Below are positions 1,659 to 19,212 of a stretch of 20,921 bases of DNA, in pieces. Within the stretch, counting starts at the first letter, position 1. The number at the start of each line of letters is the position of its first letter. The notes under the pieces are model-generated. The model searched no databases, was not told where the DNA came from, and saw nothing but the letters and a program-made list of their open reading frames with translations. The DNA comes from an uncultured bacterium. Its GTDB lineage: Bacteria; Schekmanbacteria; GWA2-38-11; J061. The translations under genes were made by a program, and so were the position numbers. Location: the NCBI GenBank assembly GCA_964549305.1, contig CAZJVM010000045.1:1-20921 (forward strand), in the 5' to 3' direction.

Positions 1659-2120
1659 ATGATTGAGAAAAATGGCGGTAAAAACAAATCCAATGACTTT
1701 GTCCTGAAAATAATTATCTTCTTTACCATAGTAATAGCTTCAACAACCCCATTTATCATATTTTATTTAGTGCAGGACGGAAATGCAAGATGCGAAAACT
1801 GTTTTATCGAAAGTATAGGCATTAATGGAATGACTGCCATAATAAAAATAGACGATGATATTGAAAAAGATGCTTATTTTTTAGCCGGCGACAAAATAAG
1901 CGTAACGCCTTTTGAGTCGAATGAGAAGAATACATCATTGATTGGGGTCGTTATAAATAAAAAGTATATGGAAGAACCGGTGGAAGAAAACTCAACAAAA
2001 GCAAAATCTTTTTGTATTTCCGTCAAGATTGATGAAAACCGCTATAAATCCCTTCGTATTGGTGAAAGAGTAATCATATGCAAAGCGGACACATTCAGGC
2101 CTTTGAGAAGTTTCTTCTGA
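1659..2120 (+). CDS. Hypothetical protein, single N-terminal TM anchor plus probable beta-rich extracytoplasmic domain
   Basis: 153-aa ORF; basic N-terminus, then hydrophobic FVLKIIIFFTIVIASTTPFIIFYLV; it is the main ORF filling this gap. Confidence 0.7.
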   Translation: MIEKNGGKNKSNDFVLKIIIFFTIVIASTTPFIIFYLVQDGNARCENCFIESIGINGMTAIIKIDDDIEKDAYFLAGDKISVTPFESNEKNTSLIGVVINKKYMEEPVEENSTKAKSFCISVKIDENRYKSLRIGERVIICKADTFRPLRSFF

Positions 2121-2142
2121 TTTTTTAAAGTGAATCGAAATT

Positions 2143-2172
2143 AAAAAGGGGCGCTTTTTCAAGCACCCCCTT
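2143..2172 (-). terminator. Rho-independent terminator (minus strand)
   Basis: Minus-strand RNA AAGGGGGUGCUU-GAAA-AAGCGCCCCUUUUU: GC-rich stem with G-U wobbles, GNRA tetraloop and U-tract. On the plus strand the wobbles become A-C mismatches, which favours minus orientation. Confidence 0.85.
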
Positions 2173-2370
2173 AGGCAGGAGTCAGGAACCAATCTCACTT
2201 CTTTACTACCAATAGTCATCTACGGGGAAAACATCACCTGCCACTATTTGCAGACAGGAGACAACCTCAACTCTTCATTTCTCGGCTATCATCATTTCTC
2301 GTCAGCGGTTTGCTCGGTCTCATCATCAGGAATATCATCATCAACTAACGGTTGCCATCTGACTGCTGTC
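2143..2370 (-). ncRNA. Candidate sigma-54-dependent small RNA (~230 nt), family unknown
   Basis: Bounded by a sigma-54 promoter (2380-2396) and a terminator (2143-2172) in the same orientation. No convincing ORF between them; internal repeated motifs. Confidence 0.6.
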
Positions 2371-2379
2371 TATAATATA

Positions 2380-2396
2380 TGCATAAATCGTGCCAA
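2380..2396 (-). promoter_or_regulatory. Sigma-54 (RpoN) -24/-12 promoter
   Basis: Minus strand TTGGCACGATTTATGCA against consensus TGGCACG-N4-TTGCW; exact GG-N10-GC spacing; intergenic. Predicted +1 near 2369-2370. Confidence 0.8.
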
Positions 2397-2433: not shown

Positions 2434-2488
2434 TATAAGGAATAAATAAGATGGGAGAAAATGAGTGTTTTAAGAAAAGGGGACATAA

Positions 2489-2505
2489 ATGAGAAAAATT
2501 CTCAT
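2489..2505. promoter_or_regulatory. Perfect inverted repeat; candidate enhancer-binding-protein site (UAS), or hairpin after coaBC
   Basis: ATGAGAA-AAA-TTCTCAT, flanked by ACAT...ATGT; about 120-135 bp upstream of the predicted sigma-54 start. Confidence 0.5.
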
Positions 2506-2519
2506 ATGTGACAAACGAC

Positions 2520-3737
2520 TTATTGTTTGGACCTATTTTTTTTTGTCCTTATCCGGTGAATTCTGTCGAGGATAATATCTGCAATATCCTCTTTCGACAG
2601 TAAATCTAATTTTTCCGGTTTGCTGTTTTTTTTGAGAATTGTGACAATATTGGTATCTGATTCAAAACCCGCGCCCATTGCCGTTATGTCATTTGCAACA
2701 ATGATGTCGCAATTCTTTTCTTTTAGTTTTTTTGCCGAGTTCTTCCGCAGATCATCGCTTTCAGCGGAAAACCCAACTATTATCTGATTTTTTTCCTTCT
2801 TCGCGCCTAATTCCTTCAGAATATCGGCATTTTTCTTTAATGTAAGGTTAAGCTCTTCATTTTTTTTCTTGATTTTTTGTTTTGATGTTTTTTCCGGAGA
2901 AAAATCTGAAACTGCCGCCGATTTTATAATTACTGAAGATTTCTTTGCTTTTTCGATGACTTTGCGCCTCATATCTTTCGCGCTTGTCACTTTGATTGTA
3001 TTTACGTTTTCAGGTGAGGCGATGGATACAGGACCACTGATAAGGGTAACGGATGCACCTCGCTGTACAGCTTTTTTCGCGATTGCATATCCCATTTTTC
3101 CAGACGACGGATTACTGATAAACCTGAAAGGGTCAATATGTTCTCTTGTAGGTCCTGCTGTTACAAGAATTGTCTCACCTTTAAGGTCTTTTTTTTTTAG
3201 AAGAATCTTGCTGACAGAGTTTACTATTGTTTCAATATCCGCAAGTCTCCCCGTACCCCTGTCACCGCAGGCAAGTTCGCCCTTTCCCGGAGGTATGAAC
3301 TTTACTCCTAACTTCTTCAGTGTTTGTATATTATTCTGAACTACGGGATGTTCATACATCTTCGTATTCATCGCGGGCGCAATGACAACTTCCCCCTTGT
3401 AGGAAAGAAAGAAGGTGGAAAGAAAATCATCGGCGATTCCATTCGCGAATTTTCCTATGATATTGGCTGTGGCAGGCGCTATCAAAAGAATATCAGTTTC
3501 TTTGTTCAACGCGATATGCGCAATTTCAGTCTCTGACGGTTCGTCAAACATTCCCGTTATAACACTTTGAGAAGTAAGGTAGCGAAGAGTGAGCGGAGTG
3601 ATGAATCTGCCGGCATTTTCAGTCATCACCGCTTTGACGGACGCGCCTTTTTTTAAAAATTCCCGGGCAATATCGCATGCCTTGTAAGCGGCAATTCCTC
3701 CAGTGATTCCCAGAGCTATTTTTTTCCCTTTAAGCAT
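2520..3737 (-). CDS. coaBC: Bifunctional phosphopantothenoylcysteine decarboxylase / phosphopantothenate-cysteine ligase
   Basis: GITGGIAAYKA, APATAN, PAMNxxMY, LACGDxGxGRL, TAGPTRExIDPxRFISNxSSGKMG, AAVSDF, GFxAE, VAND. Start placed at ATG 3737 (MLKGKKI). Confidence 0.97.
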   Translation of the reverse strand: MLKGKKIALGITGGIAAYKACDIAREFLKKGASVKAVMTENAGRFITPLTLRYLTSQSVITGMFDEPSETEIAHIALNKETDILLIAPATANIIGKFANGIADDFLSTFFLSYKGEVVIAPAMNTKMYEHPVVQNNIQTLKKLGVKFIPPGKGELACGDRGTGRLADIETIVNSVSKILLKKKDLKGETILVTAGPTREHIDPFRFISNPSSGKMGYAIAKKAVQRGASVTLISGPVSIASPENVNTIKVTSAKDMRRKVIEKAKKSSVIIKSAAVSDFSPEKTSKQKIKKKNEELNLTLKKNADILKELGAKKEKNQIIVGFSAESDDLRKNSAKKLKEKNCDIIVANDITAMGAGFESDTNIVTILKKNSKPEKLDLLSKEDIADIILDRIHRIRTKKNRSKQ

Positions 3738-3770
3738 AATTAACAATTTTTCGGTGAGTACGTTTTGCGG

Positions 3771-7731: not shown

Positions 7732-7853
7732 TACGAGGTTGCCTTTAGGTAGTTTTAATTTTAAAGGGTGTTAATTTCTTCGGCTGTTGAAGTTGATATA
7801 TTGTCATATTGAACTAATATATTTATATGCGGCAGGAGGGGAACGGGAAAAAT

Positions 7854-8279
7854 ATGAGCGAAAAATTTTACCAAATTATCGATCACACAGCTGACACGGG
7901 GTTTGAAGTTAGGGCGGAGAACAAAAAGGAATTGTTTACCCGCTCGGCTTACGCCCTCACCGATTTTATGGTTGATTTAAAAAGTATAGATGAAAAAGAA
8001 GAAATAAATGTTTCTTTATGCGACAGCATCGATATGGAGTCTCTTTTTTTAGCCTGGCTTGGTGAAATCCTTTACCTTTTTGATACAAGGGGGTTTCTTA
8101 TTTCCAAAGTTAATAAAATAAGTTTTCGCGGCAATGAAGCAAATGCCCTGTTTGCAGGCGAGAAATATGATGCGTCAAGACATAGTGTAAAAACGATATT
8201 TAAATCCGCCACATATCACAATTTGAAAGTTGCGAAAGAAGGCAATGAATGGATTGCCCGCGTTATACTGGACGTTTAA
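7854..8279 (+). CDS. Archease (RtcB cofactor)
   Basis: N-terminal DHTAD, C-terminal KSATYH and terminal ILDV; directly upstream of rtcB. Alternative ATG at 7827. Confidence 0.93.
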   Translation: MSEKFYQIIDHTADTGFEVRAENKKELFTRSAYALTDFMVDLKSIDEKEEINVSLCDSIDMESLFLAWLGEILYLFDTRGFLISKVNKISFRGNEANALFAGEKYDASRHSVKTIFKSATYHNLKVAKEGNEWIARVILDV

Positions 8280-8330
8280 TATTCATTAACTTTTCCTGAT
8301 TATTATCTTTCTTTAGGGAGATAAGTCTCT

Positions 8331-9776
8331 ATGAAGCAGAATAACCTTGAACGGATTTCGGAAACCAAATGGAGAATTGGGCGTCAGGGAAATATGAATG
8401 TGGACGGGATTGTCTATTCCGGCGCGTCAATGATTGAAGATGTTTTAAAGGATGAAGCGTTAACGCAGGTGTCCAATGTGGCGTCACTTCCCGGCATTCT
8501 GAAGGCATCCTTCGGGATGCCCGATATCCATCGGGGGTACGGTTTCCCGATCGGCGGTGTTGCCGCTTTTGACATCGATTCGGGCGTAGTCTCTCCGGGG
8601 GGCGTGGGATATGACATTAACTGCGGCGTGCGTCTTTTAAGGACAAACCTTTCACGCGATGAAATTCAATCCCGCCTCAAAGAATTGGCGGCAATCCTCT
8701 TTAAAGAAATACCATCGGGAATAGGTTCGAAGAGGCAGGACTTAAAGCTCAAAGGAGGAGACTTAAAGAAAGTCCTGAAAAAAGGGGCAAGATGGGCCGT
8801 TGAAAATTCTTTCGGTTATAATTCCGACGCCCAATGCATTGAAGACGGCGGTATGATGAAAAATGCCGAACCCGAACTTGTGAGCGCGAGAGCCCTTGAA
8901 AGAGGGCATAATCAGCTTGGCACGTTGGGTTCAGGAAACCATTTTATAGAGGTGGGTTATGTTGATGAAATATATGATGAAAAAGCCGCGGAAATATTCG
9001 GAATTTCCCGGGATTCGGTTACCGTTATGATTCATTCCGGCTCAAGGGGGCTCGGTTATCAGGTTTGTGATGATTACATAAAGGTTATGCGGAAGGCGAC
9101 GGGTAAATACGGGATAAAAATAGAGGACAGACAGCTTTGCTCGGCACCTGTAAAATCCGGGGAAGGAAGAAATTATCTATCCGCGATGGCTTGTGCTGCA
9201 AATTATGCGTTTGCAAACAGACAGATTATGTCACATTTTGTAAGAGAGGTGTTTAAGAAATTTTATAGTATTTCTGATTCAATGCTCGGTATGACTCTTG
9301 TCTATGATGTAGCTCACAACATTGCTAAAATTGAAAAACATTCAGTAGATAAAAAAATCAGGGAGGTATGTGTGCACAGAAAGGGTGCCACAAGAGCATT
9401 TCCCGCAAGCCACGGCGATGTGCCGGAAAAATATGCCAACGCGGGACAACCTGTCCTGATTCCCGGAGATATGGGCACCTGCTCTTTTGTGCTTAAGGGA
9501 ACCGTGAAAGCTATGGATGAAACTTTCGGAAGCACCTGCCACGGCGCGGGAAGGGTTTTGAGCAGAAACGAGGCAAAAAGACGGGGACGGGGAAGGCGCA
9601 TAGATGAAGAGCTTGAAAAGAAAGGAATTGTAGTCATTGCCGCAGGTAGAAACACGCTTCTCGAAGAGATGCCCCCGGCATATAAGGATATATCCGAAGT
9701 CGTAGATGTTGTCCATAAGAGCGGTATAAGTTTGAAAGTTGCGAAACTGCGTCCTCTTGCAGTTATTAAAGGCTAA
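8331..9776 (+). CDS. rtcB: RNA-splicing/repair ligase RtcB (long, archaeal/eukaryotic-like type)
   Basis: MPDIHxGYGFPIGGV, GVGYDINCGVR, LGTLGSGNHF, HSGSRG, DVAHN, VHRKGAT, PGDMG, STCHGAGR (guanylylated His) and terminal IKG; 481 aa; GGGAGA RBS. Confidence 0.97.
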   Translation: MKQNNLERISETKWRIGRQGNMNVDGIVYSGASMIEDVLKDEALTQVSNVASLPGILKASFGMPDIHRGYGFPIGGVAAFDIDSGVVSPGGVGYDINCGVRLLRTNLSRDEIQSRLKELAAILFKEIPSGIGSKRQDLKLKGGDLKKVLKKGARWAVENSFGYNSDAQCIEDGGMMKNAEPELVSARALERGHNQLGTLGSGNHFIEVGYVDEIYDEKAAEIFGISRDSVTVMIHSGSRGLGYQVCDDYIKVMRKATGKYGIKIEDRQLCSAPVKSGEGRNYLSAMACAANYAFANRQIMSHFVREVFKKFYSISDSMLGMTLVYDVAHNIAKIEKHSVDKKIREVCVHRKGATRAFPASHGDVPEKYANAGQPVLIPGDMGTCSFVLKGTVKAMDETFGSTCHGAGRVLSRNEAKRRGRGRRIDEELEKKGIVVIAAGRNTLLEEMPPAYKDISEVVDVVHKSGISLKVAKLRPLAVIKG

Positions 9777-9795
9777 CCTTTTGGGAGGTATTTTT

Positions 9796-10305
9796 ATGGC
9801 TAGAAGCGGACAATACCCCGGAAAGTCCTACAGAAAAAACGACCACTTGCCCGGCGACCCGTATATGAACGAAAAGTTAAGTTCCGGCAAGGTAGTATGC
9901 CCTCGCTGTTACTCTTTTTACATTAACAAGCGATGGCATAAAGATGATAAGAAGCTAAATAATCTTTTAAAAGATAAAGAATTTACACATTCGCTTTGCC
10001 CTGCCTGCAAAAAAACAAAAGATAAATTTCCTCAGGGAATCGTCACCCTCAGGGGGCAATTCTTCGCCGAGCATCGCGATGAAATATTGAGACTTGTCGC
10101 CAATGAAGAAAAAAAAGCAGTTGCCTTCAACCCTCTGGACAGAATAATAGAAATAAAGAACAACGGGAGTCAGGCGGTAATAAGCACAACCAGCGAAAAG
10201 CTTGCTCAAAGAATAGGAAAGGCGGTAAAAAGGGCGTGCAACGGAACAATAAGATATTCATGGTCTGTGGAGAACAAAATGGCAAGGGTTTGTTGGGAAA
10301 GATAA
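9796..10305 (+). CDS. BCAM0308-family / NMD3-like Zn-finger protein
   Basis: DPY, CPRC...RW, LCPAC...D.FP.G.VTL.G, NPL.RI, TT.EKLAQRIG.A, RV.WER. Start re-assigned to ATG 9796 with GGGAGG at 9783-9788. Confidence 0.8.
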   Translation: MARSGQYPGKSYRKNDHLPGDPYMNEKLSSGKVVCPRCYSFYINKRWHKDDKKLNNLLKDKEFTHSLCPACKKTKDKFPQGIVTLRGQFFAEHRDEILRLVANEEKKAVAFNPLDRIIEIKNNGSQAVISTTSEKLAQRIGKAVKRACNGTIRYSWSVENKMARVCWER

Positions 10306-17727: not shown

Positions 17728-19212
17728 TTAAGGTGAATTGGAATTGGAAGAAAAGAGATAAAAGTTTTCATTACGAAATGTCCCGTTCCACTTTTTATAC
17801 TCTTTCAAAATCGGGTATTCCTCTTCTTCCATTGTCACAAAAAGCTCTGCGCCTTTATGAATGAAACTTTCAATATCATTCATATTCGTTAACTCATTTT
17901 TTCGTATATACCACCCCCGTCTGTCTGAAAGGTAAAAAAGCGCAGGCAGAGGTGTCTTATCCGGAGTACCGCAGACTGCTATCAAATTTTCTTTTTTGGA
18001 ATTACCGGCGATAAACCGCGCCATTTCAAGAAGTCGGTTATCCTTTTTATACAATCCGCCTTCAATGTATAAATCTCCCGTGAGCGCTAAATAACTTCCC
18101 GATACCAATGCGAATATGAAAATCAGAAGGGTGAAGGCGGTTTTAAGTTTTATCTTCATAAGGTTGTGCTTAAGGGGAATGATTGCCTTACCGGTGATAA
18201 TAGCGAAAGGAGGCAGAAAGGAAATCAGGTAATAGTCGTGGGCATAAAATCCCACAGAGACTGCGACTGCAATGAGAGGAAGAAGAATAAGCCAAAGATA
18301 GATAAAACGGTTTTTCTTCATTCCATTATTCAGGAAAATGCCCGCAAGGAAAAAAATCAGACCGAAAGGGGTGAGGATGAGATAGAAAACGCGCCTGAAG
18401 ATTTTTTCATAGAACGACCAGTTCACCAGGTCTGAATAAGTCCCGAATTTTAGAAATCCTCCGGAGAATATGCCGAAGGTTATCCCCGTATCAAGATAAA
18501 TAAAATAAGCGTGGGCATACCAAATTATTGGTGGCAGAAGCGAGATTAGCGAGAAAATAGCGGCATTTTTTAACGTTTCTTTTCTTTTGTTTCCCCTGTC
18601 GATTATTATGAGAAACAACGGGAGAAGGAGAAAAAGCACGAGCACTTTTATGAGAAGCGCGAAAGCGAATGAGAAGGACGAAAGAATAAGAAATAACCTT
18701 TTTTCGCTTTTCTGCCATTTAAGCAAAAGGAAAAATGATAAAAGAATGAAAAAAAGCAAAAGGGATTCAGGCATAAAAGTGCGGTAGTAATAAACTGACA
18801 TAGGCGAAACCGAAAAGATGAATGCCGAGGCGAGACCTGCAGTGCCGTCATACATAATTTTCCCTATGAGAAATATGAGAAACGCTGACAGAGGGTAAAG
18901 CATAACGGAAAAAAATCTTCCCGCCTTAAAATCAATGCCCTTTACGCGGTAAATGAGGGATACGGAATAGGGGAAAAGGGGAAATTCACTCTCTACGAAT
19001 CCTTCGCTGTTCCCCCCCCAGTCAATCTGCGGATAAAGTATTGAAGTACCGTTTCGGTAAAAATTTCTTGCCATCGATGCGGTGTCGCACTGCCTCCATT
19101 CCTGATGGTCAACAGGAGGTGAGTCGACTTTATACAACCTCGCGGCAACTCCCAAAATCAGGATAATGGTTAAAAACGCCACTGTTGCTATCTTATTTGC
19201 TGATTCATTCAT
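17728..19212 (-). CDS. GT-C fold membrane glycosyltransferase (PMT_2/GT39, ArnT-like)
   Basis: WRQCDTA.MARNF, PQIDWGG...G.VESEFP, YRTFMPE, HDYY; many TM helices. Confidence 0.85.
   Translation of the reverse strand: MNESANKIATVAFLTIILILGVAARLYKVDSPPVDHQEWRQCDTASMARNFYRNGTSILYPQIDWGGNSEGFVESEFPLFPYSVSLIYRVKGIDFKAGRFFSVMLYPLSAFLIFLIGKIMYDGTAGLASAFIFSVSPMSVYYYRTFMPESLLLFFILLSFFLLLKWQKSEKRLFLILSSFSFAFALLIKVLVLFLLLPLFLIIIDRGNKRKETLKNAAIFSLISLLPPIIWYAHAYFIYLDTGITFGIFSGGFLKFGTYSDLVNWSFYEKIFRRVFYLILTPFGLIFFLAGIFLNNGMKKNRFIYLWLILLPLIAVAVSVGFYAHDYYLISFLPPFAIITGKAIIPLKHNLMKIKLKTAFTLLIFIFALVSGSYLALTGDLYIEGGLYKKDNRLLEMARFIAGNSKKENLIAVCGTPDKTPLPALFYLSDRRGWYIRKNELTNMNDIESFIHKGAELFVTMEEEEYPILKEYKKWNGTFRNENFYLFSSNSNSP

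What the first reader, a model, noticed from the sequence alone, without database searches (positions are those of the whole stretch)
2272..2343. Tandem AUGAUGA / CUGA motifs (box C/D or k-turn-like) and a 10-nt direct repeat in the 5' half of the candidate RNA
Seen (minus strand): uugAUGAUGAuauucCUGAUGAUGAgaccgagcaaaccgCUGAcgagaaAUGAUGAuagccgagaaAUGAAGA. This has three perfect RUGAUGA (2341-2335, 2326-2320, 2295-2289), one AUGAAGA, two CUGA (2329-2326, 2305-2302), and CGAGAAAUGA twice at a 17-nt period. Established: RUGAUGA and CUGA are the box C and D motifs that form k-turns bound by L7Ae-family proteins, and bacteria are not known to have C/D guide RNPs. Inference: most likely a multi-site protein sponge or scaffold (L7Ae-like YbxF/YlxQ, Hfq or another protein). 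The C-14 nt-D'-C' spacing resembles an archaeal guide but may be coincidental.
Basis: partly seen in the sequence, partly recalled or inferred. Interest (0 to 1): 0.7.

Follow-up and report, generated by a model that had tools for sequence, protein, structure and literature searches.

The report
Sigma-54 small RNA with GAUGA-rich loop
The box C/D-like motifs are real letters but belong to the purine-rich loop of a previously uncatalogued bacterial small regulatory RNA, not to an archaeal-style guide RNA.

Summary
They lie in the loop of a stand-alone minus-strand RNA gene of about 230 nt. The gene has a sigma-54 promoter (2395-2379), a predicted start near 2369 and a terminator (2172-2145). 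Homologues sit downstream of coaBC in 3 of 5 genomes of this small phylum.

Two covarying helices enclose an 83-98-nt loop. In 3 of 3 genomes this loop is purine-rich, almost free of GG and about 55-60% unpaired. What is kept there is GAUGA (5, 5 and 4 copies), with shifting positions. CUGA (2, 1, 0) and the C-spacer-D'-C' layout are not kept.

L7Ae, Hfq and ProQ hit 0 of 5 genomes. Fibrillarin and Nop5 are absent from this genome. Rfam gives only far sub-threshold snoRNA hits. Substitutions show no codon periodicity.

Verdict: the box C/D reading is refuted. A new sigma-54-driven small RNA family is well supported. My best guess for the mechanism is a multi-site platform or sponge for an unidentified binder; this is inference only. 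Interest is moderate to low.

The parts
2481..2513 (-). Inverted repeat TGTCAY-N20-21-ATGWCM, about 100 nt upstream of the promoter. It is a candidate enhancer (bEBP binding site) and could also act as a weak coaBC terminator hairpin.
   Evidence: Kept in all 3 homologous loci. In G002 it is not followed by a U run. No second copy lies upstream of another sigma-54 promoter in the genome. Its function is inferred.
2379..2395 (-). Sigma-54 promoter TGGCACGATTTATGCAT (the -24 GG and -12 GC elements).
   Evidence: It matches the genome's own set of 33 TGGCAC-N5-WTGCW sites. It is conserved in G001 and G002. rpoN is present, and there are 23 Sigma54_activat matches, 16 of them at E <= 3e-40.
2138..2369 (-). 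Predicted small RNA transcript of about 230 nt. The start is inferred from promoter geometry (+/-3 nt) and the end from the terminator.
   Evidence: Mean column identity to the G001 homologue is 82%. The covariance model finds the G002 homologue full-length at 27.1 bits, E 2e-6. No shared ORF and no codon periodicity. No Rfam family reaches its gathering score.
2359..2366 (-). P1, 5' strand (GCAGUCAG).
   Evidence: It pairs with 2257-2250. 2 of 8 pairs show changes on both sides among the 3 sequences.
2350..2356 (-). P2, 5' strand (GGCAACC).
   Evidence: It pairs with 2266-2260. 3 of 7 pairs have changes on both sides, and 100% of cells are paired.
2267..2349 (-). GA-rich loop of 83 nt, free of GG. 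It contains the whole finding (2272-2343): 5 GAUGA, 3 AUGAUGA, 2 CUGA, and CGAGAAAUGA twice.
   Evidence: Mean unpaired probability is 0.55.
2260..2266 (-). P2, 3' strand (GGUUGUC).
2250..2257 (-). P1, 3' strand (CUGUCUGC).
   Evidence: There is one U-U mismatch in this genome.
2237..2242 (-). P3, 5' strand (GGCAGG).
   Evidence: Sequence-invariant in 3 of 3 genomes. Pairing probability is 0.38, 0.99 and 1.00 in the three RNAs.
2180..2236 (-). Interior of the 3' domain, with the C/U-rich stretches GAUGUUUUCCCCG and UUGGUUCCUGACU.
   Evidence: Identical within the genus but not alignable to G002 except for CUGAC.
2174..2179 (-). P3, 3' strand (CCUGCC).
   Evidence: Invariant in 3 of 3 genomes.
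2145..2172 (-). Intrinsic terminator hairpin followed by a U run.
   Evidence: 12 pairs, 6 of them G-C. 6 of 9 modelled pairs have changes on both sides.

Best explanation
Shown or strongly supported:
- The motifs lie in a stand-alone gene for a structured non-coding RNA of about 230 nt on the minus strand.
- The RNA is transcribed from a sigma-54 promoter (2395-2379), probably under an enhancer-binding activator that uses the inverted repeat at 2513-2481. It ends at an intrinsic terminator (2172-2145).
- Its 5' end pairs with an internal segment in two covarying helices, P1 and P2. These close an 83-98-nt loop that is purine-rich, almost free of GG and mostly unpaired. A second domain, closed by the invariant GGCAGG/CCUGCC helix P3, precedes the terminator.
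- The AUGAUGA, CUGA and CGAGAAAUGA elements are local forms of the loop's GA-dominated composition. The unit that evolution keeps is GAUGA (4-5 copies per loop, with shifting positions), not the box C/D layout.

Inferred mechanism:
- On induction by its sigma-54 activator, the RNA displays several single-stranded GAUGA sites as a multi-site platform. This platform titrates or scaffolds an as yet unidentified single-strand RNA binder. It would work like CrcZ or CsrB, but with a different motif and partner.

My odds:
- real sigma-54-dependent small RNA: about 0.85
- C/D resemblance coincidental: about 0.95
- sponge or scaffold mechanism: about 0.35-0.4
For: Promoter:
- It matches 33 like sites in the genome and is conserved in G001 and G002.
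- rpoN and many activator genes are present.

Terminator.

Homologues:
- They lie at the same place downstream of coaBC in 3 of 3 genomes of the family.
- The G002 copy was recovered full-length by a model built only from the other two (27.1 bits, E 2e-6).

Structure:
- 96.7% of 90 cells are paired, and 11 of 30 pairs have changes on both sides.
- 0 of 500 shuffles reach these values, and slid controls give 33-53% paired.
- P1, P2 and P3 probabilities are 0.92-1.00 in G001 and G002, and 0.36-0.38 in this genome.

Loop:
- GAUGA occurs 5, 5 and 4 times and is the top shared 5-mer.
- The sum is 14 against 7.06 in dinucleotide shuffles (P 0.002). Any 5-mer reaches a minimum count of 4 in 1 of 3000 shuffles.
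- GG dinucleotides number 0, 1 and 0 although G is 23-29% of the loop (P <= 0.002 each).
- The loop is 55-60% unpaired.
- Loop sequence diverges (31 of 82 aligned positions within the genus) while motif content stays. Known sponge RNAs behave this way (recalled).

Not coding:
- Substitutions per codon phase are 10/28, 11/26 and 10/28, and no ORF is shared.

The anti-motif UCAUC is not enriched at crude start sites: 0.057 against 0.114 per 65 nt.
Against: - There is no expression evidence and no mapped RNA ends.
- Only 3 sequences from 2 genera are available. The structural alignment was fitted to the model, and G000 and G001 are close kin, so both the covariation and the motif statistics are overstated.
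- No candidate binding protein was identified. L7Ae, Hfq and ProQ hit 0 of 5 genomes. An RRM protein is present only in G002. CsrA is present, but its GGA motif occurs 0 times in all three loops.
- GA positions show a phase bias in G000 and G001 (11 of 18 and 12 of 19 in one phase). A coding ancestry would also give this.
- In this genome P1 carries a U-U mismatch, and the helices have only 0.36-0.38 probability.
Confidence: 0.4

Rival explanations
1. It is an ordinary trans-acting, base-pairing small RNA. The conserved C/U-rich stretches of the 3' domain (GAUGUUUUCCCCG, UUGGUUCCUGACUCCUGCC, which are anti-Shine-Dalgarno-like) or the GA-rich loop pair with mRNAs. The GAUGA repeats would then be spacer or composition, or redundant seeds.
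For: The longest identical unpaired stretches within the genus lie in the 3' domain: 13 nt and 20 nt. CUCCU is complementary to Shine-Dalgarno sequences (established knowledge). UCCUGCC and GGCAGG are invariant in 3 of 3 genomes while the other helices covary, which suggests a sequence-level constraint.
Against: - The 3' domain interior is not conserved in G002.
- CCUGCC is paired in P3 with probability 0.38-1.00.
- Complementarity of both candidate seeds to 2333 crude start regions is no better than for shuffled seeds.
- The single 12-nt match is not kept in G001.
- UCAUC is depleted, not enriched, at start sites.
- No Hfq or ProQ chaperone is found.
Confidence: 0.3
2. It is a box C/D-like or k-turn RNP. 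RUGAUGA and CUGA form k-turns bound by an L7Ae-family protein, possibly guiding 2'-O-methylation.
For: The motif letters and a C-14 nt-D'-6 nt-C' spacing exist in this genome. All 16 sub-threshold Rfam hits in the region are C/D snoRNA families.
Against: - Those hits score at most 17.2 bits against gathering scores of 36-75, with E 0.26-10.
- CUGA counts are 2, 1 and 0 in the three loops.
- C' is lost in G001 (AUGGUCA), and G002 has no C-D arrangement.
- L7Ae hits 0 of 5 genomes. Fibrillarin and Nop5 hit 0 of 1.
- The guide-like spacer is not conserved. Its exact complement occurs only at its own locus in the assembly.
Confidence: 0.02
3. The GAN repeats are codons of a small acidic peptide (DDDIPDDETEQTADEK-like), or of a decayed gene fragment.
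For: GA positions are phase-biased in G000 and G001 (11 of 18 and 12 of 19). One frame reads acidic residues in both, and a 3-nt indel is in frame.
Against: - Substitutions are even over the three codon phases (10/28, 11/26, 10/28).
- In this genome that frame has no ATG, GTG or TTG between the in-frame TAG just upstream of the predicted start and its stop. I read this from the and translations.
- A 1-nt indel breaks the frame within the genus.
- G002 has no phase bias (7, 6 and 4) and no matching ORF.
- The 5' part of that frame consists of covarying helix strands.
Confidence: 0.05
4. It is a CsrA-sequestering RNA of the CsrB/RsmZ type.
For: A CsrA gene is present. The RNA has a repeated purine motif that contains GAUG.
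Against: GGA, the core of CsrA sites (recalled), occurs 0 times in each of the three loops. GG itself is avoided.
Confidence: 0.03

Closest known systems
CrcZ/CrcY of Pseudomonas (CbrB/RpoN-driven Hfq-Crc sponge)
   Same: Both are stand-alone small RNAs induced through a sigma-54 activator, and both carry several copies of a short purine-rich single-stranded motif that sequesters an RNA-binding protein. For CrcZ I read passages of PMC5113210 (several A-rich AAnAAnAA motifs; induction of PcrcZ by CbrB) and the abstract of PMC4063720.
   Different: The motif here is GAUGA, not AAnAAnAA. No Hfq gene is found in 0 of 5 genomes. The repeats are enclosed by a covarying long-range helix. There is no sequence or Rfam relation. 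Binding is not shown.
CsrB/RsmZ family (CsrA sponges)
   Same: Both show repeats of a short motif in a fast-evolving body, and a CsrA gene is present in this genome.
   Different: There is no GGA in any of the three loops. The promoter is sigma-54 type. GacA/UvrY control of the Csr/Rsm RNAs is recalled, not checked here.
Archaeal box C/D sRNAs
   Same: In this one genome the letters RUGAUGA and CUGA occur with a 14-nt spacer and a D'-6 nt-C' arrangement.
   Different: The boxes and spacing are not conserved. L7Ae, Nop5 and fibrillarin are absent. All Rfam C/D models score far below threshold.
Other sigma-54-dependent small RNAs (GlmY/GlmZ, Qrr, NrsZ, Pxr)
   Same: All are sigma-54 promoter plus terminator-bounded small RNAs. 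For GlmY/GlmZ I saw only the listing and abstract of PMC3045617. Qrr, NrsZ and Pxr are recalled.
   Different: There is no sequence or structure similarity. The lineage is different and the partners are unknown.

Membership tests
Box C/D guide sRNA / k-turn RNP | Box C (RUGAUGA) and box D (CUGA) conserved in homologues | tested here: not met
   Only the first RUGAUGA keeps its place in G001. The second and third become AUGCCGA and AUGGUCA. CUGA counts in the loops are 2, 1 and 0.
Box C/D guide sRNA / k-turn RNP | Score at or above the gathering threshold of a C/D covariance model | tested here: not met
   There are 16 hits at E <= 10, all C/D families. The best is 17.2 bits against a gathering score of 50, and the lowest E is 0.26. 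None reaches a gathering score.
Box C/D guide sRNA / k-turn RNP | Genes for L7Ae, Nop5 and fibrillarin | tested here: not met
   L7Ae hits 0 of 5 phylum genomes. Fibrillarin hits 0 of 1 and Nop 0 of 1. This genome is 100% complete by marker genes.
Box C/D guide sRNA / k-turn RNP | Guide complementary to rRNA or tRNA | tested here: inconclusive
   No 16S rRNA is in the assembly. The exact complement of the 14-mer occurs only at its own locus, and the 8 hits with 2 mismatches are chance-level. The spacer differs by 4 substitutions and 1 indel in G001.
Sigma-54-dependent transcription unit | -24 GG and -12 GC elements with correct spacing, conserved, with rpoN and bEBP genes in the genome | tested here: met
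   TGGCACGATTTATGCAT is one of 33 such sites in the genome. It is conserved in 3 of 3 loci. rpoN is present. There are 23 Sigma54_activat matches. Promoter activity itself was not tested.
Stand-alone bacterial small RNA gene | Own promoter and intrinsic terminator, no coding signal, conserved structure | tested here: met
   The next gene is convergent, so the RNA is not a leader. Expression is not shown.
CrcZ-type Hfq sponge | AAnAAnAA motifs and an Hfq partner | tested here: not met
   The motif is GAUGA. Hfq hits 0 of 5 genomes.
CsrB/RsmZ-type CsrA sponge | Multiple GGA motifs | tested here: not met
   GGA occurs 0, 0 and 0 times in the three loops. A CsrA gene is present.
Y RNA / Ro RNP | Ro (TROVE) protein gene | tested here: not met
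   TROVE hits 0 of 1 genome. The idea was raised only because archease and RtcB lie 5.5 kb away.

The most novel reading that the evidence does not exclude
In a small uncultured phylum where I found no Hfq, ProQ or L7Ae gene, this RNA would be the RNA half of a new protein-sequestration circuit. A sigma-54 activator switches on an RNA whose helix-enclosed, GG-free loop presents 4-5 GAUGA sites to a so far unknown RNA-binding protein. That would define a new motif-protein pair for global post-transcriptional control.
Probability: 0.3. Interest if true: 0.6.

Novelty: new member of a known kind. Interest (0 to 1): 0.35.

Why it matters
If the sponge reading holds, the GAUGA loop is a ready-made bait for finding the global RNA-binding regulator of a lineage in which none of the usual small-RNA chaperones was found. 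It would also add a structurally distinct example to the few sigma-54-controlled sponge RNAs. As it stands, it is one more uncatalogued, lineage-restricted sigma-54 small RNA. It also shows that box C/D-like letters can arise from GA-rich composition alone.

Tried and rejected
- **Sequencing runs.** No RNA holder was listed. Four runs were laid, and only fragmentary near-identical contigs appeared, none on the RNA body. This gives no information on expression or variation.
- **More homologues.**
  - blastn in 41 genomes gave one long match, G001.
  - blastn across the phylum gave 2 of 5 genomes.
  - An 18-nt seed pattern in genome contigs gave 15 hits in unrelated phyla, and 0 of 15 match the model.
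  - A coaBC-anchored metagenome scan gave 80 loci with at most 52% identity, and 0 of 80 match.
  - The whole-genome model search of the phylum missed even the true G002 copy, so its blanks for G003 and G004 are weak.
  - The pattern GGCAGG..TCCTGCC gave 11 sites in G003 and G004. None has a sigma-54 promoter within 260 nt upstream, and 0 of 9 loci match the model.
- **Alternative hairpin.** P2 3' strand pairing with GGCAGG, as a switch: pairing probability is 0.00 in all three RNAs. Dropped.
- **Paralogue at C13:29734.** It lies inside a 467-aa ORF. Chance.
- **Regulon mates sharing the upstream inverted repeat.** None found.
- **Long complementarity of the RNA elsewhere in the genome.** None found.
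- **Target scans.** The RNAduplex scan timed out. Lighter scans gave chance-level results.
- **75-aa minus-strand ORF 1992-2219.** It starts inside the RNA, and G001 has a stop after 1 codon at that place (read). Rejected.
- **Plus-strand ORF 2248-2445.** This is the antisense of a purine-rich strand. No codon periodicity.
- **Literature.** For GAUGA + sRNA + sigma54, none of the 8 listed papers holds GAUGA.

Full report
**1. Observation**

- AUGAUGA lies at 2341-2335, 2326-2320 and 2295-2289.
- AUGAAGA lies at 2278-2272, and CUGA at 2329-2326 and 2305-2302.
- CGAGAAAUGA occurs twice, 17 nt apart.

The 10-mer repeat is beyond chance: 2 copies against 0.10 expected, with 0 of 100 shuffles reaching 2.

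The clustering of GAUGA is also beyond chance. The genome averages 0.16 GATGA per 90 nt, and only 10 loci carry 5 or more in 90 nt. By eye the other loci are acidic coding repeats or tandem arrays.

CUGA is not enriched locally: 2 against 0.89, P 0.19.

**2. Context**

The finding lies in the 399-bp gap between coaBC (2520-3746, minus; Pfam DFP and Flavoprotein) and a convergent 153-aa ORF (1659-2120, plus; no Pfam family). That ORF has a 25%-identical counterpart in the same-genus genome.

On the minus strand the gap holds three elements.
- **An inverted repeat at 2513-2481.**
- **A sigma-54 promoter.** TGGCACGATTTATGCAT at 2395-2379 is a near-consensus sigma-54 promoter.
- **An intrinsic terminator.** A strong one lies at 2172-2145.

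The promoter call is credible in this organism.
- The pattern TGGCAC-N5-WTGCW occurs 33 times in the genome, and most of these sites, as printed, lie a short way upstream of a Shine-Dalgarno sequence and start codon.
- rpoN is present.
- There are 23 Sigma54_activat matches, 16 of them at E <= 3e-40.

Promoter geometry puts the start near 2369, which gives an RNA of about 230 nt. The next gene downstream is convergent, so this is not a leader.

**3. Homologues**

The organism belongs to a phylum with only 5 species genomes in the collection.
- blastn finds one homologue, in the same genus: G001, 69-70% identity. Over the transcript the mean column identity is 82%.
- Following synteny downstream of coaBC revealed a diverged copy in the second genus of the family, G002. 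It has the same layout: inverted repeat, sigma-54 promoter, GA-rich body, GGCAGG...UCCUGCC and terminator.
- A covariance model built from G000 and G001 only recovers the G002 copy full-length at 27.1 bits, E 2e-6.
- I found nothing in the other family of the phylum (G003, G004), where the sequence downstream of coaBC is different.
- I also found nothing in 15 pattern hits from other phyla or in 80 metagenome coaBC loci.
- The whole-genome model search missed the true G002 copy, so absence from G003 and G004 is not shown.

**4. Structure**

All three RNAs fold with the same architecture.
- The 5' end pairs with an internal segment in two helices, P1 (AGCAGUC/GACUGCU type) and P2 (GACAGCC/GGUUGUC type). 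These close a loop of 83, 86 and 98 nt.
- A second domain is closed by GGCAGG/CCUGCC (P3).
- The terminator follows.

On the model-fitted 3-sequence alignment:
- 96.7% of 90 cells are standard pairs.
- 11 of 30 pairs have changes on both sides: P1 2, P2 3, P3 0 and terminator 6.
- 0 of 500 shuffles reach these values.
- Sliding the partner by 1-3 columns gives 33-53% paired.

Caveats: there are only three sequences, two of them close kin, and the alignment was fitted to the structure.

Thermodynamic probabilities of P1, P2 and P3 are 0.99-1.00 in G001, 0.92-1.00 in G002 and 0.36-0.38 in this genome, where P1 has a U-U mismatch.

**5. What the loop keeps**

The finding (2272-2343) lies wholly inside the loop (2349-2267).

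Composition:
- Loops are 63-69% purine.
- About three quarters of the Gs are followed by A: 18 of 24, 19 of 25 and 17 of 23.
- GG is nearly absent, at 0, 1 and 0 copies (P <= 0.002 each under mononucleotide shuffles).

Motif content:
- The top shared 5-mer is GAUGA, at 5, 5 and 4 copies.
- The sum of 14 compares with 7.06 in dinucleotide shuffles (P 0.002).
- Any 5-mer reaches a minimum of 4 in all three loops in 1 of 3000 shuffles.

Positions are not kept.
- Within the genus 31 of 82 aligned loop positions differ.
- The G002 loop is essentially unalignable except around GAGAC.
- The 10-nt direct repeat is degenerate in G001.
- The loop is 55-60% unpaired in the ensemble.

**6. Box C/D reading**

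This reading is refuted on every testable defining feature.
- Only the first RUGAUGA is conserved in place in G001. The 'C' box before the guide becomes AUGCCGA and the C' box AUGGUCA.
- CUGA counts are 2, 1 and 0.
- The 14-nt spacer has 4 substitutions and an indel within the genus.
- All 16 Rfam hits at E <= 10 are C/D families. They score at most 17.2 bits against gathering scores of 36-75, and nothing passes at gathering.
- L7Ae hits 0 of 5 genomes. Fibrillarin and Nop5 hit 0 of 1.

rRNA complementarity could not be tested properly, because no 16S rRNA is assembled.

**7. Coding reading**

One frame reads DDDIPDDETEQTADEK, and GA positions are phase-biased in G000 and G001. Several points argue against coding.
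- Substitutions are even over the codon phases (10/28, 11/26, 10/28).
- No ORF is shared by the three genomes.
- In this genome the frame has no canonical start between an in-frame TAG and its stop.
- A 1-nt indel breaks the frame.
- G002 shows no phase bias.
- The 5' part of that frame is made of covarying helix strands.

I put coding at about 0.05. A coding ancestry of the sequence cannot be excluded.

**8. Mechanism**

Retention of motif content with turnover of position, in an open loop held out by a conserved helix and under an inducible sigma-54 promoter, is how protein-sequestering RNAs look. CrcZ, for example, has several AAnAAnAA motifs, is induced by CbrB and titrates Hfq/Crc (passages of PMC5113210; abstract of PMC4063720). 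I therefore favour a multi-site platform or sponge for an unidentified binder, at about 0.35-0.4.

The usual partners are excluded.
- Hfq and ProQ hit 0 of 5 genomes.
- An RRM protein is present only in G002.
- Ro hits 0 of 1.
- CsrA is present, but GGA occurs 0 times in each loop.

The main rival, at about 0.3, is a base-pairing small RNA that uses the C/U-rich 3' domain. That domain is identical within the genus over 13 and 20 nt. It is not conserved in G002, and its candidate seeds match 2333 crude start regions no better than shuffled seeds do. The one 12-nt match is not conserved. The anti-motif UCAUC is depleted at start regions.

None of this is decisive. No binding, target or expression was shown.

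**9. Novelty**

The RNA family is absent from Rfam. A literature search for GAUGA with sRNA and sigma54 listed no paper holding the motif (top 8 of 363 seen).

The kind is familiar, however: a sigma-54-driven, terminator-ended small RNA studded with a short repeated motif. Earlier unchecked notes of this scan describe several analogous RNAs in other uncultured lineages, with CUUC, AAN, UUCCCCGA and GCUUAG repeats.

I therefore file it as a new member of a known kind, with moderate to low interest.

Noticed in passing
window 7827-9776 (+), and 9739-10305 (+): An archease gene is directly followed by RtcB RNA ligase, then by a 188-aa ORF with a weak NMD3-family match. I saw no sigma-54 site upstream of them, and there is no Ro gene in the genome.
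   Followed up: partly
G000:C147:47-120 and G000:C143:132-246 (same genome, other contigs): Near contig ends there are short arrays of a ~23-nt unit, GGATGATGAC(G/A)CAAT(A/G)GGGCGCC. A hairpin whose stem contains the complement TCATCCGG precedes them, and both copies follow a shared GTTCGGGGAATCCAGTTTTT segment. This is a separate GAUGAUGA-bearing repeat element of unknown nature.
   Followed up: partly
L042 (G004) about 3310 to 2900 on the minus strand; L043 (G003) about 1074 onward on the plus strand: In the other family of the phylum, a sigma-54 promoter with a TGTC-N-GACA dyad upstream points towards the 3' end of coaBC. In G004 it is followed by a C-rich, apparently non-coding stretch (CCUCCCUUUCCCCUUUUUU...). 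In G003 it is followed by what looks like a protein gene.
   Followed up: no
window 1659-2120 (+): The convergent 153-aa protein has a hydrophobic N-terminal segment. It has no Pfam family and is only 25% identical to its same-genus counterpart, whereas CoaBC next door is 73% identical. It is a very fast-evolving small protein.
   Followed up: partly
window 19616 (-): A second TGGCAC-N5-ATGCA site lies inside the plus-strand glycosyltransferase ORF, about 400 nt upstream of the minus-strand PMT-family gene at 17728-19212. It is probably chance.
   Followed up: no
G000:C83:363-386 (-) and G000:C155:1933-1954 (-): Two other sigma-54 promoters are nearly identical to the one of this RNA (TTGGCACGATTTATGC..). 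The C83 site is followed, in the 60 nt printed, by AT-rich sequence without an obvious start codon. It could be another sigma-54 small RNA.
   Followed up: no
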